DNA of 64,000 nt from Candidatus Thermosaccharophagus tengchongensis (GCA_032161105.1 JAVHTD010000014.1); one strand, 5' to 3'. Positions 1 through 63,746 are shown, numbered from the stretch's first letter. The notes: generated by a model from the sequence alone, not told the origin. Program-made: numbers and translations.

Positions 1-3000
1 TTTCTTCCCGGGATGCACGGTGGAAGTGAAAAAGGGAGCTTATGTTATGCCAGTTAGCAATGTTAGGGTTGTCCGTTCCGACCAAATTGCTGCAACATTT
101 GCCGTAAAGGATATGCCAGCTGGCAAGTGGGATGTCTATGTTGCAGCTGCTGATGACGATGGAGATCCGACAAATGGCATTAAAGATAGCGGAAATACTG
201 GATTAGGTAAGTTCACAGTGACTGCGAGGGCGGTCGTGACAAGTCTATCGCCATCCTCACAGTTGAATGATGCAGCAAGCAACCCATTCCAATTGGCAAT
301 TTATGGCTCCAATTTCTGGGGCGATGAATCTACCGGTTTGGATGTCAGGCTTAGGCGAACTGGTTATAGCGACATAATGGCGACTAATGAGCAGGCAGTT
401 AACAACAACACGCAGATAACATGCAATTTGAGCGTCAAAGATGCGGCTCCCGGATACTGGAACTTGGTCGTCAGGAATCCGGAAAGCCCTGAAGTTGTTG
501 TTTCAAATGCCTTCGTGGTTCAAGCCAAGGCAATAGTCGATTCAATATCTCCATCAAGTGCGCCAAATTCTGACATAGTCACAGTGACGATAAACGGGAG
601 CAACTTCTGGAGTGGCTGCGATGTCAGGTTACGCAAAGCTGGTGAAACCGATATTGTCGCAAGGAATGTCGTTGTGTCAAACGGCGGGACAAAGATAACA
701 TGTGATTTTGATTTGAGGCTAAAGGCAACCGGAGACTGGAATCTCATTGTCACAAACATCTTGAGCCCATCAAGTGATCCAAAGACCTTCACCATAAACC
801 CAGCTGGCAATCCGAGCGTCTCAAGTATTGAACCGAACTCCTCGCTGAATGATTCCACAGTTGATGTCAAAATCACTGGCAGCAACTTTATACCGACTGA
901 TTCAGCCAAACTTGTGCCGTTAAGCATATCCGGGAGCGACACGGAAATTCGTGCAACGAATGTCACAGTGAGCGATTCAAGGACAATTTATTGCCGCTTT
1001 AACCTGGTGAAGCGTTGTCCCGGTGACTGGAAAGTCGTGGTATTCGGTCTAAGAAATGGCAATCAGGTTGAGAGCACCGAGGATGTCAGGTTCACAGTGA
1101 TCGCAAAACCCGCAATCAGCAGTGTAACGCCGGATAATGCGTTGAATACCGATCCTGTGAGTGTGACGATCAAAGGCTACGACTTTATGCCGGGTGCAAG
1201 GGTGAGACTCAGGGATGGCGGGAATGTGATTGATGGCACCATTAATTCGGTCAAAAGAGACGAGATTGTGTGCGAATTTGACATAGGAAACAGGCGGCCG
1301 GCAAAGATGGATGTTGAGGTTGAAAATACACCAACTCAGGTTGCCTCCCTCAAAGAGGCGTTCACAATACAGGCAAAGGCATCCGTCAGCAAGGTTGAGC
1401 CAGATGAAGCGGATAATAGGCAGGCAAGCTTGAAGGTGACAGTTGTCGGGGACAACATTTGGAATGGTGCAACTTGCAAGCTAAAGAGGGCAGGCTTTAG
1501 CGATATACTTCCGATTGCTCAACCGCAAGTTGAGGAGCGGTTTATTGGCGGCGAGAATAAGAACAGTGAGCTTGTGTGCCAGTTTGATTTGAGAGGCAGA
1601 GCACCTGGCACATGGCAGCTTGTTGTTATAAACCCATACAACAGCCCAGAGAGTGACCCAGTTGACTTCAAAATCAACGGGGTGTATAGCCCGGACTACC
1701 CAGAGGTTGCGGGTATTGACCCGAAAGTTGGCGCAAATACTGGCAATTTGGACGCCACAATTACGGGTCGCTTCCTGTATGAGGGCGCAACCGTGAAGTT
1801 GGTGAAAGATGGTAACGAAATTGTGGCGCAAAATGTTAAATGGATGCAGGATGGGACAAAACTTACATGCACTTTGCCGTTGCTCGGGAAAGAACCCGGA
1901 AGATATGACCTCGTCGTGATAAATACCGACGGTAAAAGTGTGACAGTTTCCAAGGCATTCACGGTTATTGCTCCGGCGACCATTACCTCCGTTTCTCCAA
2001 CTACAGCCAGTAACGCAAGCGATTCCTTCACGCTGACAATCGTGGGTAGCAACTTCTGGGATGGCATAAAAGTTAGCCTGCGCCGTGCCGGCTATGGTGA
2101 CATAGTTGCAACAGGTGTCAAGGTTGTCAGTAGGACGCAGCTCACCTGCACATTCAACTTGAAGGATGTTGACAATAACCCGGCAAATGGTGATCAATCT
2201 GCAGCGCCCGGCAAGTGGTCAGTTGTTGTCCAGAATGTGCCTAATGATGAGCCGCCAATGAGCCCAGAGGCAATTAGGTCAGATGCTCTCACAATTACCG
2301 CTGCCCAACCGACTCTGACGAGTATCAACCCGAATGAAGGGGATAGGGATTCAACAGTTACGGTGACGATAACTGGAAATAACCTGTTTGCCGGTGCCTC
2401 GGTGGCTCTCAGGAAAGCTGGTCAAACACCAATCATAGCTGGCAATGTGCAAGTTATCAGTAATACTGAGATTCGGAGCACATTTGACCTAACTGGAGCA
2501 GCACTTGGATGGTGGACTGTTGTTGTGACTAATGTTGATGGTCAGTCCGCAATGCTTGCTGATGCGTTCCTCGTAAAGGGTAAAGCACCAAGGATTGACA
2601 AAGTTAACCCGAATCAAGCCTTAATAGGTTCAGTCATCGGTGTCACCGTTGAGGGCGAGAACTTCTATCCGGGAATTTCCGTTGAAATGCGCAAAGGAAA
2701 TGAGAGAATAGTCGGCACAAACATAACGCTCTTGAGCGATAAGCAAGTTTGGGCAAGGATTGACCTGAGGAATGTAAGCGATGGCGATTGGGATGTCGTT
2801 GTTACGAATGCTGATGGACAGAGAGCAACACTAAGTGGCGGGTTCAAAGTGTTTGAGGTGCCCAATGTCAAACCGGTTGTAAGCGTCATCTCGCCAAATG
2901 TGGGCAATAATGACCAAGTTGTTACAGTGACGGTAACTGGATCCAATTTCTACCCGAATGCGACAGTGAAACTTGTTAAGTCTGGGCAGTCTGACATAGT

Positions 3001-5440
3001 TGGAACCATCCTCAGCATGACCGATAAGGATGGGGATATTGGGAATGGGAATGAGGAGTTGCGATGCACATTTGACCTCAAAGGTAAGGCACCCGGAAAC
3101 TGGGATTTGGTTGTGATCAACGCCAATGGTTTGCAAAATGATAACACCGCAAACGACGACTTCACCATAAAGGCACTTGCAGTAATAACCGGAGTTACGC
3201 CGTCATCTGCACAGAATACGGCAAAAGTGAGCGTGACAATTACTGGGGCTAATTTCTGGGCAGGTGCAACTGTTAAGTTGCGCTACTCAGTGGGCAATGA
3301 GATTGTGGGTGAGAATGTTACAATTGCCGATAGAACTCGCATAGTGTGCACATTTGACATCCGTGGCAAACTTCCGGGTGCATGGGATGTGGTCGTTCAA
3401 AATGAGCGCAGTGATGAGGCTGTAAGGCAAAAGGCATTCACAGTGACCGCAAATTCACCAGTAGTTTCATCCATATCACCGAGTGAAGGGACGAATGACA
3501 AGGTTGTGCAAATCACGATTGACGGCAATTACTTCTACAACCCGACGGTCAAGCTCACTCAGGCAGGTCAAGCGGACATCATTGCAACTGGTATTGTTGT
3601 GCAAGATAAAAATAGTGACATGCATGGTGATAGGATTGTTTGTAATGTCAATCTCACAAATGCTGCGATTGGGCGATGGAATGTTGTCATCACCAACTGC
3701 GATGGTAAGTCAATAACACTCTCAAATGCCTTCATGGTTAAATCCAAATATCCGCCGACTGTGACTTCCATCTCGCCGAGTAGTGTGACCAACTATGGGT
3801 CGGTTAATGTGACAATTACAGGTGGTAACTTCTTCAGTGGGGCTGTTGTGAGGATTGAGAAAGACAATGGAACGAGCAAGAAAGTTATCACCGCAACGAA
3901 TGTGAATGTAGTGAATGCAACGCAAATTACAGCAACATTGAATGTGCATAATGCAGAACCGGGCAATTGGGATGTTGTAGTTGTTAACCCGGATGGACAG
4001 TCAGGGAAGTTGACGGGCGTTTTTGTGATTGTTCAACAGGGTGCGCCACAAATTGTAAGTGTCAGCCCATCTTCAGCACCCAACACTGGCACTGTTACAG
4101 TCACAATCAATGGTTCAATGTTCCTCAGAGGCGCAACGGTTCGCCTGACGAAATCCGGTCAAACGGACATAGTTGGTATGAATGTCAACTTCGTCGATTC
4201 AACGACACTTACATGCCAGTTTGACCTGCGCGATAAAGCGCCCGGAGATTGGAATGTCGTCGTCCGCAATCCCGATGGTAAAGAGGGCAAGAAGGATAAC
4301 GCATTCAAGATAACGGCTCCGGCACCGGTTGTCAGCGGGATAACACCATACACAGGGGCAAATACTGGCATGGTTTCCGTGACAATTACCGGAAACAATT
4401 TCTTCAAAGGCGCGATGGCATTCCTGAGGCTGAATGGCGAGAATATTGAAGGGATTAACCCATCGGTGTTGTCAAAGACCACGATGACTTGCCAGTTCAA
4501 CCTGAACCGTAGGCGACCGGGCAAGTGGGATGTCGTCGTAAGGAATACTGATGGACAGGAGGGTAAGAGGGAAGCTGCATTCACTGTGACTGCCCCAGCA
4601 ACCCTGACGGGTATAACGCCAAGTTCTGGCGAAAATAATGGCAATGTAAGCGTCACAATCACGGGGAGCAACCTTTGGACTGGTGCATCCGTAATTTTGA
4701 GGCGCAGCGGTCAACCTGATATAATTGGAACGAATGTGCAGGCAAATGCTGCTAACACGCAATTGACATGCCAATTTAACCTCACAGGCGCCTCACCCGG
4801 TTGGCGCTCGCTCGTTGTGGCAAACCCATACAGTCCATCAGTTGTCCTTGGTAATGCCTTCTTGGTGCGTGCACCAGCGCCAAGCATAACCTCCGTAACG
4901 CCATCGGAAGGGCTCAATTCAACATCGGTGACAGTGAGGCTTTATGGCAGTAACTTCTACCCGGGCATGATTGCAAGGCTGATCAAGGATGGGCAAGCTG
5001 ATATCGGTGGGACGAATGTGAGTGTGCTTAGCCAAAATGAGGCAACTTGCACATTTAACTTGGTCGGTAGAGCGCCCGGCAAATGGACTGTAAGAGTTGT
5101 GAATGCTGATGACAGGTATGGTGAGTTAAAGGACGGCTTCGTCATTAAAGCGCAAGCAAAAGTGTCAGCAATAACGCCAAATCGTGGCTATAGTGGCTCT
5201 TCAGTGAGCGTTGTGATAAGCGGGAGCAATTTCTGGAGCGGCGCAAAAGTTCTTTTGCGCAAGTCAGGGCAGAATGACATTGTGGCAACGAATGTCGTTG
5301 TTGAGAGCGGGACAAGGATTAGGGCAACCCTTAACCTGACTGGTGCCGCAAAAGGTGCATGGGATGTCGTCGTCATAAATGTCGTAGATGGCATTGAGAG
5401 TCCGCCAGGCGCCCTTCAGGGGGCATTTACGGTTCAATAA
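1..5440 (+). CDS. Giant IPT/TIG (Ig-like) tandem-repeat surface protein, 5'-truncated
   Basis: About 19 repeats of ~95 aa (P-x-I-x-S-I-x-P...V-T-I-x-G-x-N-F...G-x-W-D-V-V-V-x-N-x-D-G). The frame is open from base 2 (FFPGCTV), so the true start lies upstream of the window. Confidence 0.85.
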   Translation, partial: FFPGCTVEVKKGAYVMPVSNVRVVRSDQIAATFAVKDMPAGKWDVYVAAADDDGDPTNGIKDSGNTGLGKFTVTARAVVTSLSPSSQLNDAASNPFQLAIYGSNFWGDESTGLDVRLRRTGYSDIMATNEQAVNNNTQITCNLSVKDAAPGYWNLVVRNPESPEVVVSNAFVVQAKAIVDSISPSSAPNSDIVTVTINGSNFWSGCDVRLRKAGETDIVARNVVVSNGGTKITCDFDLRLKATGDWNLIVTNILSPSSDPKTFTINPAGNPSVSSIEPNSSLNDSTVDVKITGSNFIPTDSAKLVPLSISGSDTEIRATNVTVSDSRTIYCRFNLVKRCPGDWKVVVFGLRNGNQVESTEDVRFTVIAKPAISSVTPDNALNTDPVSVTIKGYDFMPGARVRLRDGGNVIDGTINSVKRDEIVCEFDIGNRRPAKMDVEVENTPTQVASLKEAFTIQAKASVSKVEPDEADNRQASLKVTVVGDNIWNGATCKLKRAGFSDILPIAQPQVEERFIGGENKNSELVCQFDLRGRAPGTWQLVVINPYNSPESDPVDFKINGVYSPDYPEVAGIDPKVGANTGNLDATITGRFLYEGATVKLVKDGNEIVAQNVKWMQDGTKLTCTLPLLGKEPGRYDLVVINTDGKSVTVSKAFTVIAPATITSVSPTTASNASDSFTLTIVGSNFWDGIKVSLRRAGYGDIVATGVKVVSRTQLTCTFNLKDVDNNPANGDQSAAPGKWSVVVQNVPNDEPPMSPEAIRSDALTITAAQPTLTSINPNEGDRDSTVTVTITGNNLFAGASVALRKAGQTPIIAGNVQVISNTEIRSTFDLTGAALGWWTVVVTNVDGQSAMLADAFLVKGKAPRIDKVNPNQALIGSVIGVTVEGENFYPGISVEMRKGNERIVGTNITLLSDKQVWARIDLRNVSDGDWDVVVTNADGQRATLSGGFKVFEVPNVKPVVSVISPNVGNNDQVVTVTVTGSNFYPNATVKLVKSGQSDIVGTILSMTDKDGDIGNGNEELRCTFDLKGKAPGNWDLVVINANGLQNDNTANDDFTIKALAVITGVTPSSAQNTAKVSVTITGANFWAGATVKLRYSVGNEIVGENVTIADRTRIVCTFDIRGKLPGAWDVVVQNERSDEAVRQKAFTVTANSPVVSSISPSEGTNDKVVQITIDGNYFYNPTVKLTQAGQADIIATGIVVQDKNSDMHGDRIVCNVNLTNAAIGRWNVVITNCDGKSITLSNAFMVKSKYPPTVTSISPSSVTNYGSVNVTITGGNFFSGAVVRIEKDNGTSKKVITATNVNVVNATQITATLNVHNAEPGNWDVVVVNPDGQSGKLTGVFVIVQQGAPQIVSVSPSSAPNTGTVTVTINGSMFLRGATVRLTKSGQTDIVGMNVNFVDSTTLTCQFDLRDKAPGDWNVVVRNPDGKEGKKDNAFKITAPAPVVSGITPYTGANTGMVSVTITGNNFFKGAMAFLRLNGENIEGINPSVLSKTTMTCQFNLNRRRPGKWDVVVRNTDGQEGKREAAFTVTAPATLTGITPSSGENNGNVSVTITGSNLWTGASVILRRSGQPDIIGTNVQANAANTQLTCQFNLTGASPGWRSLVVANPYSPSVVLGNAFLVRAPAPSITSVTPSEGLNSTSVTVRLYGSNFYPGMIARLIKDGQADIGGTNVSVLSQNEATCTFNLVGRAPGKWTVRVVNADDRYGELKDGFVIKAQAKVSAITPNRGYSGSSVSVVISGSNFWSGAKVLLRKSGQNDIVATNVVVESGTRIRATLNLTGAAKGAWDVVVINVVDGIESPPGALQGAFTVQ

Positions 5441-5485: not shown

Positions 5486-5537
5486 GTCGGGGCGCATGGA
5501 ATGCGCCCGAAAAGGGCGGGTTTCACCTGTCCCTTAA
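5486..5537. repeat. REP-like palindrome pair (GTAG family, degenerate)
   Basis: gtcggggcgcatggaatgcgcccg followed by gggcgggtttcacctgtccct; near-identical to the elements at 26566-26686 and 45433. Confidence 0.75.
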
Positions 5538-6426: not shown

Positions 6427-6594
6427 AGCGCTTTGAGATTTTTACGGGATGGGTGATATGCAGGGGTGGCTGCTAACCGTCTACAAAGACTGATCCAACC
6501 CCTGTGAAGTTTTGAACTCCGAAGCAGCGATTGAATTGGGAGTTATTGCCTCCATCGGGCAGTTTTTGCAAAATTTTGGCAAAAATCCGCCAAA

Positions 6595-7896
6595 ATGGCA
6601 AAGCCATCAAATGGGGGTGTGTTGGACATGAGTGAGAAGGATCGCAGGACAGGCATGTTATTGTGTTGCATCATCGGGTGGGCATTAGCCGCAATCATGT
6701 TCATTGTGGCAATATACGCCATAGCTACAAGACCGTCAATTAGGCGTTCGCTTGCGGTAGCGCGCTCTGAGAGGGCTAAAGTGAGCGACAGAGTGGCAGC
6801 TATTTGCGGCATTGGTGCATTGCGCGATGCAAAATCTGTGCCCGAGTTAATTGAGCTTTTGAAGGGCGGTGATGCCACCATCAGGGCGAGTGCTACTATG
6901 GCGCTTGTTGCCGTCGGGGAGCCAGCAGTGCCAGAGTTAGCCAACCTCATAAAGGCAGCGCAACAAATCCCGATCATCTCAACCGCGGACATGCTCCCTA
7001 TGGGCACACCAGAGAGCGCTGCAGCTTATGCTCTTATTGGCATAGGAAAGGAAGCACTCCCAGAACTGATGAAGATGCTTCAATCAAAGGAGCACAAGGT
7101 CTGGTATAGTGCCGCACAGATCATCAGTCGGATTGGGAGGGATGCCCTCCCAGTGTTGACGAAAGCCTTCACTGAGACCAATGACACGGGGTTCAGTTAC
7201 AACATCGCCACCACTATCGGCTTAATGGGCGATGTTGCAGAGGGGGCATTGATTGAGACATACAAAGCCACTTCCGATCAGGCAAAGCGCATTCAATTGC
7301 TCTCGCAGTTTGGCTCCATAAAGAATCCATCAAAGGATGCGCTTGAGTTGCTATTCAAAGCTGCTGAAGAGCCAACGACTGCGCCAACGGCGCTTTCGGC
7401 GCTCGGTCAGACAAGACATCCTAAGGCAATTCGTTTTTTGATTGGCAAGTTGAGAAGTGAAGACCCAGCGATACGAAACAACGCTGCAGTGGCACTTGGG
7501 ATTGCTGGCGCAAAGGAAGCAGTCCCGCAGCTGATTGAGTTGCTCAAGGATGAAAAAGCTGCCTCAGGTGCAGCCAACGCGCTTGGCGCATTGCGTGACA
7601 TGAGGGCATTAAACCCATTGATTGAACTCTTGCGGAAGAAGACGGATGCTTCAATGCATGCTGCATATGCGCTTGGCTCATTGGGCGCAAAAGAAGCAGT
7701 GCCTGCACTAATCGCCACCTTGAAAGAGCTCAAGGGAAGCAAGGAGCATATAACGCTCAAGATCGCATGCATAATTGCGCTCGGGCAGTTGAGAGCAACC
7801 GAGGCAAAACCTGTCCTTGAAGAGATGTTGAACGATCCCGACCAGATGGTTAGAGACAATGCCAAAAGAGTGCTTGACCAATTGAGCCAATGGTAA
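6595..7896 (+). CDS. Membrane-anchored HEAT-repeat protein
   Basis: N-terminal TM helix, then repeated AVPxLIELLK...AAxALG (HEAT_2/PBS lyase-like) units. Confidence 0.85.
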   Translation: MAKPSNGGVLDMSEKDRRTGMLLCCIIGWALAAIMFIVAIYAIATRPSIRRSLAVARSERAKVSDRVAAICGIGALRDAKSVPELIELLKGGDATIRASATMALVAVGEPAVPELANLIKAAQQIPIISTADMLPMGTPESAAAYALIGIGKEALPELMKMLQSKEHKVWYSAAQIISRIGRDALPVLTKAFTETNDTGFSYNIATTIGLMGDVAEGALIETYKATSDQAKRIQLLSQFGSIKNPSKDALELLFKAAEEPTTAPTALSALGQTRHPKAIRFLIGKLRSEDPAIRNNAAVALGIAGAKEAVPQLIELLKDEKAASGAANALGALRDMRALNPLIELLRKKTDASMHAAYALGSLGAKEAVPALIATLKELKGSKEHITLKIACIIALGQLRATEAKPVLEEMLNDPDQMVRDNAKRVLDQLSQW

Positions 7897-19600: not shown

Positions 19601-20680
19601 TTGTGGAGGATGAACAGCATGGCGACCATGACGCCAAGGAGAAGGGTAGAAGCTGTGCTACGCGGTGAGAAACCAGACAAAATACCGTTCACCGTCTATG
19701 AGAACAAGCTCCCGCAATGCACCGTAGAGCGGCAATTGCGCAATGATGGGCTGTGCATTGTGGAGCGTCGCTACTCCGTCTTTCGCATCCACACCCCAAA
19801 TGTTCGTGTTGAAACCATCTCATACACCGAGAATGGGATCCCATACATTCGCAGGAACTACTACACACCAGTTGGCAACTTGTATGCTATTGATCGTCCC
19901 GCTGGCTTCACCACATGGAATTTGGTCAAGCTCTTCAAAAGCCCCGAGGATTACAAGCCGTTACTTTTCATGATCAAGGATCAGCAGATTGAGCCAACTT
20001 ATGAGCCCTTTATGCGTGCTCAGGAGATGCTCGGAGAGGATGTAACACTTCGGGTCAACATAGGTTCCACTCCGCTGCATCAGATCATGGTGCACTGGAT
20101 GGGTTTGGAGACATTTGCAGTAGAATGGATTGAGCGGCGTGATGAGATTGAAAGGCTCTATAAAGCCATTGTAGAGAAACACCGCCAAATATACGAAATC
20201 GTTGCAAAATCTCCGGCACTGCATGTTAACTACGGTGGTAACGAAACTGGTGATGTAATGGGCAGGGAGCGCTTTGAGAAGTATGTCCTTCCACTTTACA
20301 ACGAGGCTGCTGAAGTGCTCCACAAACACGGTAAACTTTTGGGTGCTCACCTTGACGGGAATAATCGTGTTTGGGCTGATTTGGTGGCGCAATCTGGTCT
20401 TGACTACATTGAGGCATTCACTCCGGCTCCAGACACGGATATGACTATTGAAGAAGCCTTTCAAATTTGGTCGGGAAAGGTCCTATGGATCAATTTCCCA
20501 TCGTCGGTTCACCTGCGCCCTGTGGAAGAGATTAAAGCCACCACACAGCGCATTATTGAGGCTTCAAAGCCTGACTATCGCTTGATTATTGGCATAACTG
20601 AGGATGTGCCAGAAGACCGTTGGCAGCAGAATTTCCTCGCCATTTCCGAAACAATTAATGCTGTGGGGAGGTTGAGATAG
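19601..20680 (+). CDS. Uroporphyrinogen decarboxylase/MtaA-CmuA-like TIM-barrel protein
   Basis: MTPRRRVEAVLRGEKPDKIP, FEKYVLP, HLDGN, EAFTP, LWINFP; true start likely at 19619 or 19628. Confidence 0.7.
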   Translation: MWRMNSMATMTPRRRVEAVLRGEKPDKIPFTVYENKLPQCTVERQLRNDGLCIVERRYSVFRIHTPNVRVETISYTENGIPYIRRNYYTPVGNLYAIDRPAGFTTWNLVKLFKSPEDYKPLLFMIKDQQIEPTYEPFMRAQEMLGEDVTLRVNIGSTPLHQIMVHWMGLETFAVEWIERRDEIERLYKAIVEKHRQIYEIVAKSPALHVNYGGNETGDVMGRERFEKYVLPLYNEAAEVLHKHGKLLGAHLDGNNRVWADLVAQSGLDYIEAFTPAPDTDMTIEEAFQIWSGKVLWINFPSSVHLRPVEEIKATTQRIIEASKPDYRLIIGITEDVPEDRWQQNFLAISETINAVGRLR

Positions 20681-24173: not shown

Positions 24174-24259
24174 TGGAAAAGGGGATGATGAGGGGGGTGG
24201 TGGGCGGGTTGTTCAATGGTGCTTGCGATTGCTAAAATGCTCACAAGGAGGGGATAGGG

Positions 24260-26425
24260 ATGTTTTGTAGTCGTTGTTTCGTCCATGTTGTGGCAGGTCT
24301 TGGGGGCGCCTTGCGGCGCAAGTTTGCGGCGTGCATTGGAGTGTTGGTTGTATGTCTTTCATTGTTGGCTCTTGAAATCTCATGCCACAAACTTCCCCGG
24401 AAACGCCCCGTGCTCGTCTCCAAAACAGGGCGCACCGAGGAACGCCCTGTGCTCGTCCCCAAAACGGGGCACATCGGTCCAGTGAATAGCGTATCCTTCA
24501 GTCCAGACGGAAGGACGATAGCTTTGGGAAGCGGTGACGGAATGGTCATCCTTTGGGATACTGAAACGGGCGAGGTGAGGCGAATGTTGGAGGGACACAC
24601 CGATCCTGTGTATAGCGTATCCTTCAGTCCAGACGGAAGGACGATAGCTTCGGGAAGCTTTGACAAAACGGTCATTCTTTGGGATGCAGAAACTGGTAAG
24701 ATGAGGCGGAAGTTGAAGGGGCACACTGGTTCTGTGTTGAGCGTATCCTTCAGTCCGGATGGAAGGACGATAGCTTCGGGAAGCCGTGACGGAACGGTCA
24801 TTCTTTGGGATGCAGAAACTGGTAAGATGAGGCGGAAGTTGAAGGGGCACATCTGGCCGGTGAGGAGTCCGGTGAGGAGTGTAGCCTTTAGTCCAGATGG
24901 GAGGACGATAGCTTCGGGACACGGCAAAACGGTCATTCTTTGGGATGCAGAAACTGGTGAGGTGAGGCGGAAGTTGAAGGGACACACCGGTTGGGTGGAA
25001 AGCGTATCCTTTAGTCCGGATGGAAGGACGATAGCTTCGGGAAGCCGTGACGAAACGGTCATCCTTTGGGATGCTGAAACGGGTAAGATGAGGCGGAAGT
25101 TGGAGGGACACACCGATTGGGTGAATAGCGTATCCTTCAGTCCGGACGGAAGGACGATAGCTTCGGGAAGCGGTGACACCACGGTCATTCTTTGGGATGC
25201 AGAAACTGGCAAGGTGAAGTGGGAGTTAGAGGGACACATTGATTTTGTGGAAAGCGTATCCTTCAGTCCAGATGGAAGGACGATAGCGTCGGGAGGCGAT
25301 GACAGCACGGTCATCCTTTGGGATGCAGAAACAGGTGAGGTGAGGCGGAAGTTGAAGGGACACACCTGGGCGGTGGAAAGCGTATCCTTCAGTCCGGATG
25401 GAAGGACGATAGCTTCGGGAAGCCGTGACGAAACGGTCATCCTTTGGGATGCTGAAACGGGTAAGATGAGGCGGAAGTTGGAGGGGCACACCGATTGGGT
25501 GAGTAGCGTATCCTTTAGTCCGGATGGAAGGACGATAGCTTCGGGAAGCGGTGACGGAACGGTCATTCTTTGGGATGCAGAAACTGGTGAGATGAGGCGG
25601 GAGTTGGTGGGACACACCGATCCTGTGTTTAGCGTGTCCTTCAGTCCAGATGGAAGGATGATAGCTTCGGGAAGCTATGACAAAACGGTCATCCTTTGGG
25701 ATGCAGAAACTGGTGAGATGAGGCGGGAGTTGAAGGGGCACACCAGTGAAGTGAATAGCGTATCCTTCAGTCCGGACGGAAGGACGATAGCTTCGGGAAG
25801 CGGTGACGGAACGGTCATTCTTTGGGATGCAGAAACTGGTGAGATGAGGCGGAAGTTGGAGGGGCACACCTGGGGGGTGAGGAGCGTATCCTTCAGTCCA
25901 GACGGAAGGACAATAGCTTCGGGAAGCGGTGACGGAACGGTCATTCTTTGGGATGCAGAAACAGGCAAGATGAAGCGGAAGTTGGAGGAGCGCACCGTTT
26001 CTGTGGAAAGCGTATCCTTCAGTCCAGACGGAAGGACAATAGCTTCGGGAAGCGGTGACGGAACGGTCATTCTTTGGGATGCAGAAACAGGCAAGATGAG
26101 GCGGGTGTTGGAGGGGCACACCCGTTCTGTGAGGAGCGTATCCTTCAGTCCAAATGGAAGGACGATAGCTTCGGGAGGCTATGACGACACAGTTCGCCTG
26201 TGGGATGTGGCTACTGGCAGGGAAATTGCCACCTTCATCAGCTTTGATTCAGGTCAAGATTGGCTTGTTATCACTCCAGAAGGCTACTACAATGCCTCTC
26301 CAAATGGCGACAGGTTCGTTCGGTGGCTTGTAGGCAACAAACTCTATCCAGCGGAGAAATTTTCCGATCAGTTCAAGCGTCCAGACATTGTTGCGAAGGC
26401 GCTTAGGGGCGAGAAAATTCCGTAG
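24260..26425 (+). CDS. Exported WD40-repeat protein, 14 highly conserved repeats
   Basis: N-terminal hydrophobic segment ending ISC; 14 x GH...VxSVSFSPDGRTIASGSxDxTVILWD; C-terminal DWLVITPEGYYNAS...RPDIV tail. Confidence 0.92.
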   Translation: MFCSRCFVHVVAGLGGALRRKFAACIGVLVVCLSLLALEISCHKLPRKRPVLVSKTGRTEERPVLVPKTGHIGPVNSVSFSPDGRTIALGSGDGMVILWDTETGEVRRMLEGHTDPVYSVSFSPDGRTIASGSFDKTVILWDAETGKMRRKLKGHTGSVLSVSFSPDGRTIASGSRDGTVILWDAETGKMRRKLKGHIWPVRSPVRSVAFSPDGRTIASGHGKTVILWDAETGEVRRKLKGHTGWVESVSFSPDGRTIASGSRDETVILWDAETGKMRRKLEGHTDWVNSVSFSPDGRTIASGSGDTTVILWDAETGKVKWELEGHIDFVESVSFSPDGRTIASGGDDSTVILWDAETGEVRRKLKGHTWAVESVSFSPDGRTIASGSRDETVILWDAETGKMRRKLEGHTDWVSSVSFSPDGRTIASGSGDGTVILWDAETGEMRRELVGHTDPVFSVSFSPDGRMIASGSYDKTVILWDAETGEMRRELKGHTSEVNSVSFSPDGRTIASGSGDGTVILWDAETGEMRRKLEGHTWGVRSVSFSPDGRTIASGSGDGTVILWDAETGKMKRKLEERTVSVESVSFSPDGRTIASGSGDGTVILWDAETGKMRRVLEGHTRSVRSVSFSPNGRTIASGGYDDTVRLWDVATGREIATFISFDSGQDWLVITPEGYYNASPNGDRFVRWLVGNKLYPAEKFSDQFKRPDIVAKALRGEKIP
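24467..26206 (+). repeat. Intragenic tandem array of ~126-bp near-identical units
   Basis: agcgtatccttcagtccggatggaaggacgatagcttcgggaagc...ggtcattctttgggatgcagaaac recurs with very few synonymous differences. Confidence 0.95.
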
Positions 26426-26565: not shown

Positions 26566-26686
26566 GTAGGGGCGCATGAAATGCGCCCGAAATGCGCATG
26601 AAATGCGCCCGAAATGCGCCCGAAAAAACGGGCGGGTTTCACCCGCCCCTACAGGATGGGTTTTTTGCGGCTAAAGCCGCTCCTAC
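26566..26686. repeat. GTAG-type REP cluster (BIME-like)
   Basis: GTAGgggcgcatgaaatgcgccc with internal gaaatgcgc reiterations; inverted gggcgggtttcacccgccccTAC; gcggctaaagccgctcCTAC. Lies between convergent genes. Confidence 0.85.
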
Positions 26687-37245: not shown

Positions 37246-38697
37246 TCATCGCTTCCTCAGACGCCTTGCTTTCTTTTGGCGCTTGCGTTCCTCAAGTATC
37301 TTCTTGATCGCCATCCTCGCGGCGCGCTTGACTTCCTTTCGCTCCTTGAAGCGCCACCACCTTGCCAAACGCTTCAAGTGGGGGAGTGCCTTTGGGTCTT
37401 TTATCTCTCCGAGAGCCTTTGCAGCCCTCGCCCTTACATTGTGGTCCGGGCTTTTGAGATCAAGCAGGAGTTGAGCAACGGTATGCGTATCAGCTACCTT
37501 GCCGAGGATCCGAATTGCTGCCTCTACAGCCCTCTCATCCCTGCTCGTGCGCAGCAAAGTCAACATCGCTTCAATGACTGGCTTTCCAATTTCGGCGAGG
37601 GCGTCCTCGGCGGCTTTTCTCACCTCTTCATCCCAGTCGCCTAACGCCTTTACAAGCTCCGGTATGGCACGTGGGTCTTTGAGCAACTTGAGCGCCTTCA
37701 CAGCAGCCCTGCGCACATACCAAACTTCATCTCCAAGTAGCGATGTTAGCGGCTCAACCGTTCCTTTGCCGCCAATCTTTGCGAGTGCCTCCGCTGCCGA
37801 AGCCCTGACTTCCCATTCGGTGTCTTTCGTTGCCTCAATTAAACCATCAATTGAGCGTATGTCGGGAAGGACTTTCAATGCCTCAATTGCGTTAATCCTT
37901 ACCTCCTTCTCGTTTGCCTTGAGCGCGCGAAGGAATGTCGGTAGCAGGCGCTTCTCTTTCCGCTCGCTCAGTTGCTCTATCGCCCCATCAACACCGGAGA
38001 GGACATCTGAGGCGAGCTTGACCAAGTCACCATAGCCCAGTTGCTCAAGCGCCCTCTCCGCAGCCTTCCTTACCCTCTCTTCGGGATCCCCCATAGCCCT
38101 TATCAAGGCTTCAATTGCGTCCGGCTCATCCTTGAAGCGAGCCAATACGCTTACGGCGACCATCTTCGGTCCGACTCTCGGGTGGTCAAGGGCTTTGATG
38201 ACTGCATCCAGAGCTTCCTTCCCGATGCCTTCCAACGCTTGTCCGGCAGCAGTCCGCACATCCCAAGAGCTGTCCTCCATAGCTTCAATGAGCGCTTCAA
38301 CTGAGCGCGGGTCACGAATGTATCCGAGGGCTTCAATGGCGAGATGACGAACCTCTGCTTCCCTGTCCTTTGCCGCTGTGATTAGGGCATCAACTGCAGC
38401 GCTGCCGAGACGAATGAGTGCAGCCTGAGCTGCATTGCGCACATCCCACGATTCATCCCTTAAAGCCTCAATCAGCGGCTCAACCGCCCTTGCATCTCCG
38501 ATCCAGCCGAGCGCCGATGCTGCAGCACTCCTTGCAGCATCGGATTCATCTGAGCGGAGCATTTCAATCAGTGGCTCAACTGCGCGGTGCTCCTTCATCC
38601 TGCCAAGCTCATATGCCGCCGAGGAGCGCAAAGTCCAATCCGGATGCTTAAGTTGGTCAAGCAATCGTTCAACTTGGCTCACATCCATTTCGTCCAT
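37246..38697 (-). CDS. HEAT-repeat protein
   Basis: Repeated AVEPLIEAL-x-D-x-x-W-x-VR-x-AA units; basic C-terminus. Confidence 0.88.
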   Translation of the reverse strand: MDEMDVSQVERLLDQLKHPDWTLRSSAAYELGRMKEHRAVEPLIEMLRSDESDAARSAAASALGWIGDARAVEPLIEALRDESWDVRNAAQAALIRLGSAAVDALITAAKDREAEVRHLAIEALGYIRDPRSVEALIEAMEDSSWDVRTAAGQALEGIGKEALDAVIKALDHPRVGPKMVAVSVLARFKDEPDAIEALIRAMGDPEERVRKAAERALEQLGYGDLVKLASDVLSGVDGAIEQLSERKEKRLLPTFLRALKANEKEVRINAIEALKVLPDIRSIDGLIEATKDTEWEVRASAAEALAKIGGKGTVEPLTSLLGDEVWYVRRAAVKALKLLKDPRAIPELVKALGDWDEEVRKAAEDALAEIGKPVIEAMLTLLRTSRDERAVEAAIRILGKVADTHTVAQLLLDLKSPDHNVRARAAKALGEIKDPKALPHLKRLARWWRFKERKEVKRAARMAIKKILEERKRQKKARRLRKR

Positions 38698-38813
38698 TTC
38701 GGTTGCCCCCACAAACCGCTTGAGTATGCGCGCTTTTTGTTGCAAGCGCCGTCAAGTTTCAAGTTTAGCGCAAAGCCCTTTGAGACACCTGCAATGTGAT
38801 TTCTCTGTCGCGC

Positions 38814-45432: not shown

Positions 45433-45458
45433 GCAGGGGCGCATGGAATGCGCCCGAA
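45433..45458. repeat. REP-like palindrome
   Basis: gcaggggcgcatggaatgcgcccgaa; core identical to the 5486 element. Confidence 0.75.
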
Positions 45459-58006: not shown

Positions 58007-59614
58007 ATGAGCATGCAAATGTGTCCGGAATGCAGTGCTGACAATTCTGAGCGAGCACGATTCTGCATTCGTTGTGGCGCGCCACTTCGTGGCTTACTTG
58101 GCTTTGGGACGGTGCTCAAGGGGCGATATAAGGTCGTGCGTGTTCTCGGATGTGGTGGCATGGGTGCGGTTTACCTCGCCTTTGATGCGAGAGCCAATGA
58201 CGCACCGGTGGCTGTCAAAGAAAACCTTGATGACTCACCGGAGGCGCAGCAGCAGTTTGATAGTGAGGCGAGGATACTCATGAGGTTGCGCCACCCAAAC
58301 CTGCCGCAAGTTAGGGATTACTTCGTTGAGCGCAACGGCAGGCGGTATATAGTGATGGACTTCATCGCCGGCGAGGATTTGGAAACAATCGTTCGTGTGC
58401 ATGGTCCTTTACCCGTGCAGAAGGTGCTTTACATCGCCGATAGAATAGCTGGCGCCGTTGAATACCTACATGAGCAGGATCCACCAGTCATACATCGCGA
58501 CATTAAGCCATCCAACATAAAGTTGACCCCGAATGGTGAACCCGTGCTCGTTGATTTTGGGATTGCCAAGTTCTATCGTCCGGGGCAACGGACGGTTGCC
58601 GGTGCAAGGGCTGTTTCACCCGGCTTCTCTCCAGTTGAGCAGTATGGGCATGGGACGACAGACCAGCGCAGCGACATTTATGCGTTCGGCGCAACACTTT
58701 ACTACATCCTGACCGGTGTGGTTCCACCTGAAGCCATTGAGCGTGCTGCCGGAGCAACCGATAAGCTCATCCCGGTGCGGTCAATAAACCCGAATGTCCC
58801 ACCGCATGTTGATAAAGCGATATGGATGGCAATGCGAGTCCGCCCGGATGAGCGCATCAAAAGCATGCGTGAGTTTAGGCTTGCATTGCAAGGGAAGCTG
58901 CCGCTCAAAATCTCACCACCGAAGGCAGCTGCCTCACAGCGTGCTCACAGGGCGGCACAAAGCCACCAAGTGGGGCAGGTTGGTCAACCCCCAGTTGGAG
59001 CGAGTCAACCACAAGTTCATCAGCGAGCTCAACCGCAAGCTCATCAACGACCCCAACCGCAACCAGTTCCCTCACAGGGCGCACAACAACAGTTGCAAGA
59101 TGTCTATCCAATCGGCATCCCGAAAGAAGTGCTTTCAGTTGGTCCTCCAGCCAACCAATATGTTCGCATTGCGGCTTTCATAGTTGACCTCGCCGTGCTC
59201 ATACCAACCCTGTATGTCGTCGCAATCGGGACATGGGGACTTGGTTGTATCGTCATGAGCGGAATTTACGGTCCGGAGAACTTTGTCATCAACGAGGCTG
59301 GCTTTGCACCCTACGCGTGGAGGGTTGTGATTGGCGGTTTCCTGCTATACCGCTTTTTATCGCATTGGTGGTGGGGTCAGACTATGGGGAAGTCGCTCTT
59401 CAAATTGCGCATTGTCACCGAAAGTGGCGCTCATCCGTCTTTCCTTCGGATTCTGGTGAGGGAGATTGCTTTTGCGCTATCGGCGCTTCCTTGCATGCTC
59501 ATCAGCATCGCCGTGCTTGCCTTGACCCCGACGAAACAAAGCCTGCATGATGTATTCGTCAACACATTCGTTGTGCATTATGAGGGCGACGAAGAGGAGG
59601 AAGATAATTTGTGA
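58007..59614 (+). CDS. Ser/Thr protein kinase with N-terminal zinc ribbon and C-terminal RDD domain
   Basis: CPEC...CIRC; LGCGGMGAVY, VAVKE, HRDIKPSN, DFG, SPVEQ; Gln/Pro linker; RIAAFIVD...GQTMGK...SLHD. Confidence 0.9.
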   Translation: MSMQMCPECSADNSERARFCIRCGAPLRGLLGFGTVLKGRYKVVRVLGCGGMGAVYLAFDARANDAPVAVKENLDDSPEAQQQFDSEARILMRLRHPNLPQVRDYFVERNGRRYIVMDFIAGEDLETIVRVHGPLPVQKVLYIADRIAGAVEYLHEQDPPVIHRDIKPSNIKLTPNGEPVLVDFGIAKFYRPGQRTVAGARAVSPGFSPVEQYGHGTTDQRSDIYAFGATLYYILTGVVPPEAIERAAGATDKLIPVRSINPNVPPHVDKAIWMAMRVRPDERIKSMREFRLALQGKLPLKISPPKAAASQRAHRAAQSHQVGQVGQPPVGASQPQVHQRAQPQAHQRPQPQPVPSQGAQQQLQDVYPIGIPKEVLSVGPPANQYVRIAAFIVDLAVLIPTLYVVAIGTWGLGCIVMSGIYGPENFVINEAGFAPYAWRVVIGGFLLYRFLSHWWWGQTMGKSLFKLRIVTESGAHPSFLRILVREIAFALSALPCMLISIAVLALTPTKQSLHDVFVNTFVVHYEGDEEEEDNL

Positions 59615-62606: not shown

Positions 62607-63572
62607 TTAGCGCTGCGAGTAGAAGAACATGTAGCGCTCAAGTGATGAGCATATTGCCTCAATGTTCTCAAGGGGCACATCCGGTTCAACCTCGGCATAG
62701 AGCATCAAGCCGCCCTCTGGAGAGCCGAGTTTCATCACCGCCTCTTTGACATGCTCTTCAATGTCCTTTGGGGAGCAGAATGGAAACATCTGCCTATCAA
62801 GGTCAAGGTCAATGCAAACCTTTCCCTTGGCTTCTCTTGCGAGCTCGTCTATGCCGTTTGCGCGCACCTGCGGGTTGAGCACGCTCACCCCGCAATCAAT
62901 CAAGTCCCCGATTATCTCTATGACATGCCCATCGGTGTGAAAGTAAACATGTGCCCCTGCTTCCCTGCAGAGCCTGAATATGCGCTCGTAGCATGGCTTA
63001 AGGTATTTTCGGAAGTGAGTCGGACTGAATGGCAACCTGTCTTGCATTCCGAGGTCATCACCGAAGTGGACGATCTTCGGTTTGTGAGAGAGCATCCTCT
63101 TAACCACAGCGAGGTTGTATGAGAGCACCATCTCAATGAGCTTCCAAAGCTGCGGTGGCTCTTCAACGAAGTCAATCATCAAGTTCTCATAGCCGCGAAG
63201 GTATGTTAGGCGAAGGAACATGAACCCGTGAGGGAGGGAATCTGCAGTCGGCTCTGGCGGACGGTAGCTTTCCAACGCCTCCCAAGTTTCAATTGGGTGG
63301 TGGACGACTATAGCCTCAAGTCCGTCACGAATGTTTCTCCAGACGCATCCCCACTCATCCACATGCTCGCCAACACGATATGTGCCGCCAACTTCGTCAA
63401 AGTTCTTGCTGCCCCTCTTGTATTCCCCGAATATTAGCGGATGGCGTAGCACGATCTCCTCAAGCGCCTCTCTATAGCGCATCCAAGTTGCTGGCATCAA
63501 GCCGACGCGCACGGGTATCCATGCAGGATTGCGGAACTCAATTGCACGGAAATAATTCTCACTTGGGCTCAT
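62607..63572 (-). CDS. Uroporphyrinogen decarboxylase/MtaA-CmuA-like protein
   Basis: DEWGCVW, LRGYENL, GDDLGMQ, FHTDG, LNPQ, DRQ, VPLENI. Confidence 0.8.
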   Translation of the reverse strand: MSPSENYFRAIEFRNPAWIPVRVGLMPATWMRYREALEEIVLRHPLIFGEYKRGSKNFDEVGGTYRVGEHVDEWGCVWRNIRDGLEAIVVHHPIETWEALESYRPPEPTADSLPHGFMFLRLTYLRGYENLMIDFVEEPPQLWKLIEMVLSYNLAVVKRMLSHKPKIVHFGDDLGMQDRLPFSPTHFRKYLKPCYERIFRLCREAGAHVYFHTDGHVIEIIGDLIDCGVSVLNPQVRANGIDELAREAKGKVCIDLDLDRQMFPFCSPKDIEEHVKEAVMKLGSPEGGLMLYAEVEPDVPLENIEAICSSLERYMFFYSQR

Positions 63573-63746
63573 GAGACCATCACCACAACGCCCGTCTGAT
63601 TTTTCGCAGTGCCAGAATTAATTCCCTAAGTGACATCGCAATGGCATCCCTTCGCCCCCCTTCGGAAGCTTAACAGCCACCGATGCACTCACCTGTGCGC
63701 CACCTGAGGTTATAAGAGTGAGCAATCAACGGCAATTGCCTTTCCA

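What the first reader, a model, noticed from the sequence alone, without database searches (positions are those of the whole stretch)
24260..26425. Exported WD40 double propeller with homogenised repeats and hypervariable binding positions: candidate diversifying recognition system
Seen: 14 units of ~126 bp nearly identical at DNA level, including silent sites. Amino-acid variation concentrates in the residues after GH (IGP/TDP/TGS/TGW/TDW/IDF/TWA/TSE/TWG/TRS), the residue in V-x-S (N/Y/L/R/E/S/F) and GS-x-D-x (G/F/R/D/Y). Established: this pattern of high internal conservation with variable top-face residues characterises fungal HNWD (HET-D/E-type) receptors that evolve by repeat shuffling. 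Inference: here the propeller follows a signal/TM segment with a possible lipobox and has no NACHT domain, so it may be a surface binder whose specificity is reshuffled by unequal recombination.
Basis: partly seen in the sequence, partly recalled or inferred. Interest (0 to 1): 0.75.

Follow-up and report, generated by a model that had tools for sequence, protein, structure and literature searches.

The report
Exported repeat protein with variable face
A bacterial gene builds a probably exported, ring-shaped binding protein from fourteen similar DNA repeats that differ mainly where they would touch a target; the pattern is already known from fungal immune receptors and some bacterial proteins, but here it belongs to a widespread family whose members often carry a protease that this copy lacks.

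Summary
ORF 24260-26425 has 14 WD40 units of 126 bp, 83% identical on average (not near-identical), with silent sites homogenised. Five positions per blade vary. They include the published top-face hotspots; replacement diversity there is about 2.4-2.8 times silent diversity, while exposed strand-d sites drift at the silent rate. There is no canonical lipobox.

It places the protein in a large bacterial family: signal peptide, WD40 propellers, cap, then often a linker domain and caspase-like protease. Protease-less forms like this one recur across the family tree and include its closest relative, which has only 3 repeats. Relatives vary at the same five positions, and one pair is 97% identical after the propeller but 50% identical within it.

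Best reading: an extracytoplasmic binder whose top face is diversified under concerted evolution. It works like HNWD repeats but is not an HNWD/NLR. Ligand, export and present-day shuffling are not shown. Homogenised WD40s with variable hotspots are already described in bacteria; I found no description of this exported family in 8 searches.

The parts
24245..24251 (+). Shine-Dalgarno-like AAGGAGG, 8 nt before the ATG
   Evidence: sequence
24260..26425 (+). 721-aa ORF: signal/anchor, 14 WD40 blades, cap domain, stop; no caspase domain
24260..24385 (+). N-terminal export signal or membrane anchor (basic RRK, then hydrophobic residues ~22-40); no canonical lipobox
   Evidence: Kyte-Doolittle 19-residue peak 2.58; AF2 helix 16-41; N-terminus aligns with that of P0129, which has no Cys at the matching place; lipobox pattern fails. 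No signal-peptide predictor was available.
24404..24475 (+). In-frame duplication (39-bp offset) of the family's pre-propeller motif RPVLVxKTG
   Evidence: 28 of 33 nt identical; family consensus PEVFxQLGH at this place
24467..26239 (+). Array of 14 WD40 units of 126 bp; homogenised framework, hypervariable columns 4, 5, 7, 23, 25
   Evidence: AF2 mean pLDDT 92, four strands per unit; best Foldseek hit 2ymu 'highly repetitive propeller', E 6.8e-63, 50% identity
24857..24880 (+). Perfect 12-bp tandem duplication in unit 4 (PVRS-PVRS) in the variable d-a loop; the same unit lacks the tetrad Asp codon
24925..25518 (+). Recent three-unit-offset (378 bp) duplication or conversion tract; 95 nt identical at 25013-25107 and 25391-25485; units 5 and 8 are 96% identical and differ in amino acid only at columns 4-5
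26240..26425 (+). 61-aa cap domain (W-x-x-x-T-P-E-G-Y-Y ... R-P-D-x-V-x-x-A-L-x-G) ending at the stop; in most long relatives it is followed by ~360-440 aa ending in a caspase-like domain
   Evidence: 2423 hits at E<=0.001 among 1.84 billion representatives; no Pfam; no significant PDB sequence or fold match; AF2 pLDDT 94.9
26566..26652 (.). Downstream REP-like inverted repeat with GTAG ends enclosing 11-bp tandem units; probably unrelated to the gene
   Evidence: partial copies at 5486-5534 and 45435-45458; the REP label is recalled

Best explanation
A protease-less member of a widespread bacterial family of exported WD40-propeller proteins, acting as an extracytoplasmic binder with a diversified top face. 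SHOWN: 14 blades and a conserved cap; family membership through the cap; framework homogenised at DNA level; excess replacement change at top-face hotspot codons; propeller turnover between relatives with near-identical flanks; recurrent presence or absence of the caspase module. INFERRED: (1) the hydrophobic N-terminus exports or anchors the protein; (2) the 14 blades form two 7-bladed rings closed by the N-terminal strand and the cap; (3) RecA-type unequal crossover and gene conversion among the 126-bp units keep the framework uniform and change blade number and order, while selection keeps or favours different residues at columns 4, 5, 7, 23, 25; (4) the rings bind a changing external macromolecule (phage receptor-binding protein, predator or competitor surface, or a secreted protein). 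In full-length relatives binding would aim or activate the caspase-like protease; in this copy binding alone (sequestration, adhesion, or presentation to a partner encoded elsewhere) is the output.
For: At positions fixed in advance from the literature, pN is 0.60-0.63 vs pS 0.22-0.25; ratio 2.4-2.8, jackknife 2.2-3.1. Per-site diversity is 0.60 (8 sites) vs 0.22 at 17 four-fold sites, p=4e-4, while exposed strand-d sites (0.27) do not differ from silent sites, p=0.70. Units 2 and 3 are identical at 37 of 37 framework residues and differ at 5 of 5 variable ones. The same five columns top the entropy list in 25 repetitive relatives, and 24 of 25 have at least 3 of the 4 published positions in their top six. 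P0121/P0127 are 97% identical from the cap onward and 50% in the propeller; P0050/P0122 83% vs 49%; P0009/P0046 83% vs 45%. The closest relative P0129 has homologous first and last repeats, N-terminus and cap (73%) but 3 repeats instead of 14. Cap-terminated forms are 72 of the best 150 cap hits and intermix with caspase forms on a tree (11 changes, at least 3 forced). 153 of 158 full caspase domains keep HG and DxC motifs. All three indels in the gene keep the frame and the framework is under purifying selection (diversity 0.04 vs 0.22).
Against: No ligand, localisation or expression data. No same-species allele, so current shuffling is not observed. The distance-dependent recombination test was significant in only 1 of 6 settings (p=0.012-0.55), and the high site incompatibility (385 of 528 pairs) could partly be recurrent mutation. 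Pairwise pN/pS uses non-independent units and ignores recombination. Most relatives are not highly repetitive: 25 of 85 with at least 6 regex-recovered repeats reach 60% internal identity, and in about 50 of the 56 close pairs the propeller diverges about as fast as or only modestly faster than the C-terminus. The neighbourhood is housekeeping (sbcDC, leu/ilv), not a defence island. One caspase-less Armatimonadia paralogue has no hydrophobic N-terminus in the called ORF. The 3-repeat relative could be an assembly collapse, and some 'cap-terminated' proteins are contig-end fragments (only 26 of 72 have a Met start plus crude signal).
Confidence: 0.55

Rival explanations
1. One recent amplification followed by differentiation: the array arose from one or two blades, then each blade's top face adapted to one fixed partner. 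There is no ongoing diversity generator.
For: Described as common for beta-propellers (PMC9218822, discussion) and for highly repetitive WD40s (PMC5587647, section 11). It explains excess replacement change without shuffling. The weak PHI-like result fits.
Against: Non-adjacent units share the youngest identities (5/8 96%, 2/10 94%; identity does not fall with distance up to 8 units). Identical tracts of 75-95 nt occur at offsets of 1, 2 and 3 units, and 19 of 45 pairs of silent-type sites in units 2-13 are tree-incompatible. These point to repeated exchange rather than one event.
Confidence: 0.25
2. Decaying relic of a propeller-caspase gene that lost its protease and is no longer useful.
For: Three of 14 tetrads are broken; there are indels in unit 4 and the N-terminus; no caspase is present in the window. 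Disrupted repetitive propellers are frequent (PMC9218822).
Against: No caspase remnant follows the stop (profile best E 3.1). The stop falls at the cap's end, as in the sister protein P0129 and both L001 paralogues. All indels are in frame and framework diversity is about one fifth of silent diversity.
Confidence: 0.1
3. Relaxed constraint only: the variable positions are simply exposed and free to drift on a stable scaffold.
For: Loop residues tolerate substitution; silent diversity within the hot codons is also raised (0.36 vs 0.24).
Against: Drift cannot exceed the silent rate, yet hot sites run at about 2.7 times that rate while exposed strand-d sites run at the silent rate.
Confidence: 0.06
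4. Assembly artefact: repeat number or order, or chimeric units, come from short-read assembly of mixed strains.
For: Identical tracts of up to 95 nt exist. The closest genome locus L001 breaks and has an N gap inside such repeats.
Against: All 14 units are distinct, the frame is intact, there is no N in the window, and relatives place the cap after a similar ~600-660 residues. An artefact could change order but not create the column-specific pattern seen in 25 other proteins.
Confidence: 0.04

Closest known systems
Fungal HNWD receptors (HET-D/E/R; PMC1805685 passages, PMC2873952 abstract)
   Same: WD40 arrays under concerted evolution; positive selection at two residue pairs flanking conserved sites in the d-a loop and b-c turn (their codons 7, 9, 25, 27 map to columns 5, 7, 23, 25 here by spacing and structural description).
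   Different: No HET or NACHT domain, probably exported, single copy in the window; allelic instability and a ligand are not shown here.
Highly repetitive prokaryotic WD40 / WRAP propellers (PMC5587647 sections 7 and 11; PMC9218822; PDB 2ymu)
   Same: Recently amplified blades with high internal identity and diverse hotspot residues; 2ymu is the best structural match; a role in bacterial innate immunity has been proposed.
   Different: WRAP is described as the C-terminal part of STAND ATPases. This protein has a signal-like N-terminus and an unnamed cap and no NTPase.
Bacterial WD40-metacaspase (Peptidase_C14) proteins (PMC3501461 passages; database names 'caspase family protein')
   Same: Homologous signal-propeller-cap region; WD40 is the commonest partner domain of bacterial metacaspases (10.9%), and N-terminal helices are noted as likely signal peptides.
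   Different: This protein stops after the cap and has no protease. The passages seen do not describe the cap, the caspase-less forms or repeat diversification in this family.

Membership tests
HNWD / fungal NLR-type STAND receptors | NACHT or other STAND NTPase domain | tested here: not met
   No such Pfam/NCBIfam hit; the 721 residues are accounted for by signal, 14 blades and cap
HNWD / fungal NLR-type STAND receptors | N-terminal HET or other cell-death effector domain | tested here: not met
   The 69-residue N-terminus has no significant Pfam hit
HNWD / fungal NLR-type STAND receptors | WD40 repeats of high internal conservation with diversifying selection at top-face codons | tested here: met
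   (counting methods only)
HNWD / fungal NLR-type STAND receptors | Repeat number and order polymorphic among conspecific isolates | not testable with these tools
   No same-species allele found; reads and metagenome contigs not available
Highly repetitive WD40 / WRAP-like propellers | Median blade identity above 60% | tested here: met
   Median 0.79
Highly repetitive WD40 / WRAP-like propellers | Blades more similar within the protein than to blades of other proteins | tested here: met
   12 of the 13 equal-length units have their nearest neighbour inside the gene; unit 14 does not; unit 4 was placed only in the tree; P0129 repeats 1-2 fall inside the same cluster
Signal-WD40-cap-(caspase) family, defined here | Cap domain directly after the last blade and P-x-L/V-x-x-x-x-G-H motif before the first | tested here: met
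Bacterial metacaspases (Peptidase_C14) | Caspase domain with His-Cys dyad | tested here: not met
   Absent from the protein and from all six frames of the window
Bacterial lipoproteins | Lipobox [LVI][ASTVIG][GAS]C after the h-region (pattern recalled) | tested here: not met
   L-E-I-S-C fails; 5 of 134 signal-bearing relatives match the pattern; no dedicated predictor run
Sec-exported proteins | Cleavable signal peptide or signal anchor | tested here: inconclusive
   Hydropathy and AF2 helix fit; no SignalP-type tool; cleavage versus anchoring undecided
Diversity-generating retroelement targets | Reverse transcriptase and template repeat nearby; adenine-specific variation | tested here: not met
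   No RT among 45 ORFs scanned; no second copy of the unit elsewhere in the window; variable codons are G/C/T-rich at the varying sites. The rest of the genome was not seen.
Known folds for the cap domain | Structural match in the PDB | tested here: inconclusive
   Best Z 2.8 (rmsd 4.1, 62 aligned) among 48,161 chains; no Foldseek hit at E<=0.001

The most novel reading that the evidence does not exclude
Bacteria have an NTPase-free, extracytoplasmic counterpart of NLR/HNWD receptors: a modular family in which an exported WD40 propeller is continually rebuilt by repeat recombination into new binding faces, clamped by an undescribed cap domain, and coupled either to a caspase-like protease or left as a stand-alone binder, giving an antibody-like surface repertoire against phages, predators or competing cells.
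Probability: 0.3. Interest if true: 0.8.

Novelty: new variant of a known kind. Interest (0 to 1): 0.48.

Why it matters
If right, repeat-driven receptor diversification, known from intracellular fungal and bacterial STAND proteins, also operates outside the cytoplasm and without an NTPase switch. It would also suggest what the many signal-bearing WD40-caspase proteins of bacteria do: the propeller picks the target. The cap gives a specific handle on a family of thousands of sequence clusters with no Pfam model, and natural pairs with swapped propellers make specificity testable. The core sequence pattern itself is already published, which limits surprise.

Tried and rejected
Caspase remnant or separate caspase gene in the window: none (tblastn of the last 365 aa of 120 hits, best outside hit E 0.006; profile from 85 caspase-motif proteins, best E 3.1). 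Second WD40 or cap copy in the window: none. DGR mechanism: rejected within the window. Mobile-element carriage: cap has no match in 72,556 plasmids or 50,697 phages; GC 0.54 and GC3 0.57 resemble neighbours. Rfam: no match in the window. Promoter and terminator scans at chance level (2 vs 1.5; 4 vs 2.6). PADLOC hit HEAT-ARM_XIII is confined to WD repeats and was not taken as system membership. Cap fold search: nothing clear, which is no evidence of a new fold. ESM Atlas: generic WD40 clusters with the last blade included, unnamed clusters for the cap alone at low recognition; leads only. Same-species alleles: none among 21 candidates of 396-1262 aa and 5 shorter candidates; longer proteins were covered only. 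Exact-sequence cluster membership and organism identity stayed unchecked; Armatimonadota is only suggested by the nearest genome hit. The genome scan used one peptide pattern, so it undersamples the family. Presence or absence of the gene at the sbcC-leuC junction in relatives, and metagenome and viral contigs, stayed unchecked. Model coordinates were not readable, so face assignment rests on strand positions and published conventions. No complex prediction was run, as no partner is known. Literature: 8 searches; no supplements were read, and architecture tables in supplements of PMC3501461, PMC5587647, PMC9218822, PMC7159879 and PMC8195603 may already list this family.

Full report
Observation. 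The ORF 24260-26425 (+) encodes 721 aa with 14 WD40 units of 126 bp at 24467-26239. Units are 83% identical on average (66-96%; 86% for units 2-13). Four-fold silent sites are 78% identical (1202 of 1545) against 27-35% expected from codon usage, so the similarity is homogenisation or recent amplification, not protein constraint alone. For column counts unit 4 was gapped: its 12-bp duplicate was dropped and one missing codon marked. Columns 4, 5, 7, 23 and 25 are the most variable (pN 0.59 vs 0.08).

Where the variable sites lie. AlphaFold2 gives mean pLDDT 92, a helix at 16-41, a disordered linker at 40-59 and four strands per unit. For unit 2, columns 4-5 fall in the loop before strand a, column 7 at the start of strand a, and columns 23 and 25 in the b-c turn. 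These include the top-face hotspots R1-2, R1 and D-1 (PMC3419727, abstract and section 10) and match the four positively selected codons of fungal HNWD repeats (PMC1805685, passages; mapped by spacing and described location, not by aligning HET-E). I could not read coordinates, so the face assignment and the 7+7 arrangement are inferred. The best structural hit is the highly repetitive propeller 2ymu (E 6.8e-63, TM 0.44), followed by double propellers.

Selection or drift. With positions fixed in advance from those papers, pN is 0.60-0.63 against pS 0.22-0.25 (ratio 2.4-2.8, jackknife 2.2-3.1); the chance that all four lie in the top five of 42 columns is 4.5e-5. Per site, first and second positions of these codons have diversity 0.60 (n=8) versus 0.22 at four-fold sites (n=17), p=4e-4. 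Exposed strand-d positions (0.27) match the silent rate (p=0.70) and the remaining framework is at 0.04. Relaxed constraint therefore does not explain the pattern. The units are not independent and no recombination-aware model was run.

Exchange among units. The closest pairs are non-adjacent (5/8 96%, 2/10 94%). Identical tracts of 95, 91 and 75 nt occur at offsets of 3, 1 and 2 units, and 385 of 528 informative site pairs (19 of 45 silent-type pairs in units 2-13) are incompatible with one tree. A PHI-like test was significant in only 1 of 6 settings. In a tree of 56 repeats from eight genes (42 columns, weakly resolved), internal repeats group by gene while last repeats group across genes; unit 14 pairs with the last repeat of P0129. 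This fits concerted evolution with a pinned terminal unit, but does not show that shuffling is still going on.

The last 61 residues form a cap with no Pfam or PDB match but a confident model (pLDDT 94.9) and 2423 relatives at E<=0.001. Among the 128 proteins stored (best 120 of 1391, plus 8 of 8; a set biased to long repeat-rich proteins), 105 have the cap, 104 of these continue into a caspase-type region, and 80 of those 104 have a crude signal segment. Pfam confirms Peptidase_C14 in P0134, and 153 of 158 full caspase domains keep HG and DxC motifs. Among the best 150 of the 2423 cap hits, 72 end at the cap, 62 continue into the caspase region and 16 into something else; 26 of the 72 look complete at the N-terminus. 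In 79 genome loci, 88 cap-bearing frames split 70 caspase, 11 cap-terminated, 5 other, 2 open. Some proteins repeat propeller plus cap two or three times and one carries an N-terminal TIR domain, so the cap belongs to the propeller, not the protease. On a 60-row tree of last repeat plus cap (single-cap proteins among P0129-P0199 and P0038, 'other' class left out, plus L001 and this protein) the two forms intermix: 11 changes, at least 3 forced by well-supported branches; some cap-terminated rows may be fragments. The window holds no caspase or remnant.

Relatives. The closest, P0129 (cap 73% identical), is also caspase-less, has a homologous N-terminus without the Cys, and has 3 repeats; real contraction and assembly collapse cannot be told apart. 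The nearest genome hit is an Armatimonadia MAG with two tandem caspase-less paralogues beside BrxL, PglZ-like and SspC/BrxC-like genes; one paralogue has no hydrophobic N-terminus in the called ORF. Of 85 cap-bearing proteins with at least six regex-recovered repeats, 25 have median internal identity of 60% or more, and their five most variable columns are the same five. Of 56 pairs with close C-termini, about six show a propeller far more diverged than the flank, most strikingly P0121/P0127 (97% vs 50%); the rest diverge roughly evenly. Diversification is thus a feature of part of the family, and this gene is among its most homogenised members (0.79; 1 of 92 relatives reaches 0.8).

Context. 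The gene lies between sbcD, a URO-D-like gene and sbcC upstream and the convergent leuC-leuA-ilvC-ilvH-ilvB cluster. GC content is ordinary; there is no RT, STAND or mobility gene among 45 ORFs scanned, and no cap match in plasmids or phages.

Mechanism. Most likely (0.55) an exported or membrane-anchored binder whose framework is kept uniform by recombination between units while selection keeps the top-face residues different; in full-length relatives the propeller would aim a caspase-like protease, and here binding is the only output. Export, ligand, immune role and current shuffling are inferred. Rivals: one-off amplification then adaptation to a fixed partner (0.25), decaying relic (0.10), relaxed constraint (0.06), assembly artefact (0.04).

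Known and new. It works like HNWD repeats (PMC2873952, abstract) but fails membership: no NACHT, no HET. Highly repetitive prokaryotic WD40s with diverse hotspots are published (PMC5587647, abstract and sections 7 and 11), as are continual blade amplification and a proposed immunity role (PMC9218822, abstract, discussion and passages) and WD40 and signal-like helices on bacterial metacaspases (PMC3501461, passages). Passages of PMC8195603 and PMC7159879 did not describe this architecture. Eight searches found no account of the cap, the caspase-less forms or diversification in this exported family; subscription papers and supplements were not seen. Verdict: real, a new variant of a known kind, interest 0.48.

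Noticed in passing
window 26566-26652; partial copies 5486-5534 and 45435-45458: REP-like element with GTAG-ended inverted arms and 4.4 internal copies of an 11-bp unit; label recalled, no associated transposase seen.
   Followed up: partly
L001 1-10551: Two tandem caspase-less WD40-cap paralogues (82% identical over 295 nt around the stop) next to a BrxL / PglZ-like / SspC-BrxC-like cluster.
   Followed up: partly
L035 1-11371, L047 1-11770, L069 7598-17097: Planctomycete loci with tandem arrays of two to four propeller-cap genes, most with a caspase region; L003, L018 and L019 have further caspase-like genes beside them.
   Followed up: no
proteins P0129, P0137, P0161, P0262: Short forms of 140-238 aa: signal-like N-terminus, one to three WD repeats, cap. 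They may oligomerise into a propeller or be assembly collapses.
   Followed up: no
protein P0128: TIR domain fused to a divergent propeller ending in the same cap, with no signal; an intracellular variant.
   Followed up: no
window 19601-20680: URO-D-like gene inserted between sbcD and sbcC; a second URO-D-like gene at 62610-63617.
   Followed up: no
window 2-5437: Large (over 1800 aa, 5'-open) protein with several IPT/TIG domains, probably a surface protein.
   Followed up: no
window 37249-38751 and 6535-7893: Two HEAT-repeat proteins; internal repeat similarity was not examined.
   Followed up: no
window 58999-59062: 24-bp tandem repeat (2.7 copies) inside a Ser/Thr kinase-RDD gene preceded by an FHA gene.
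   Followed up: no
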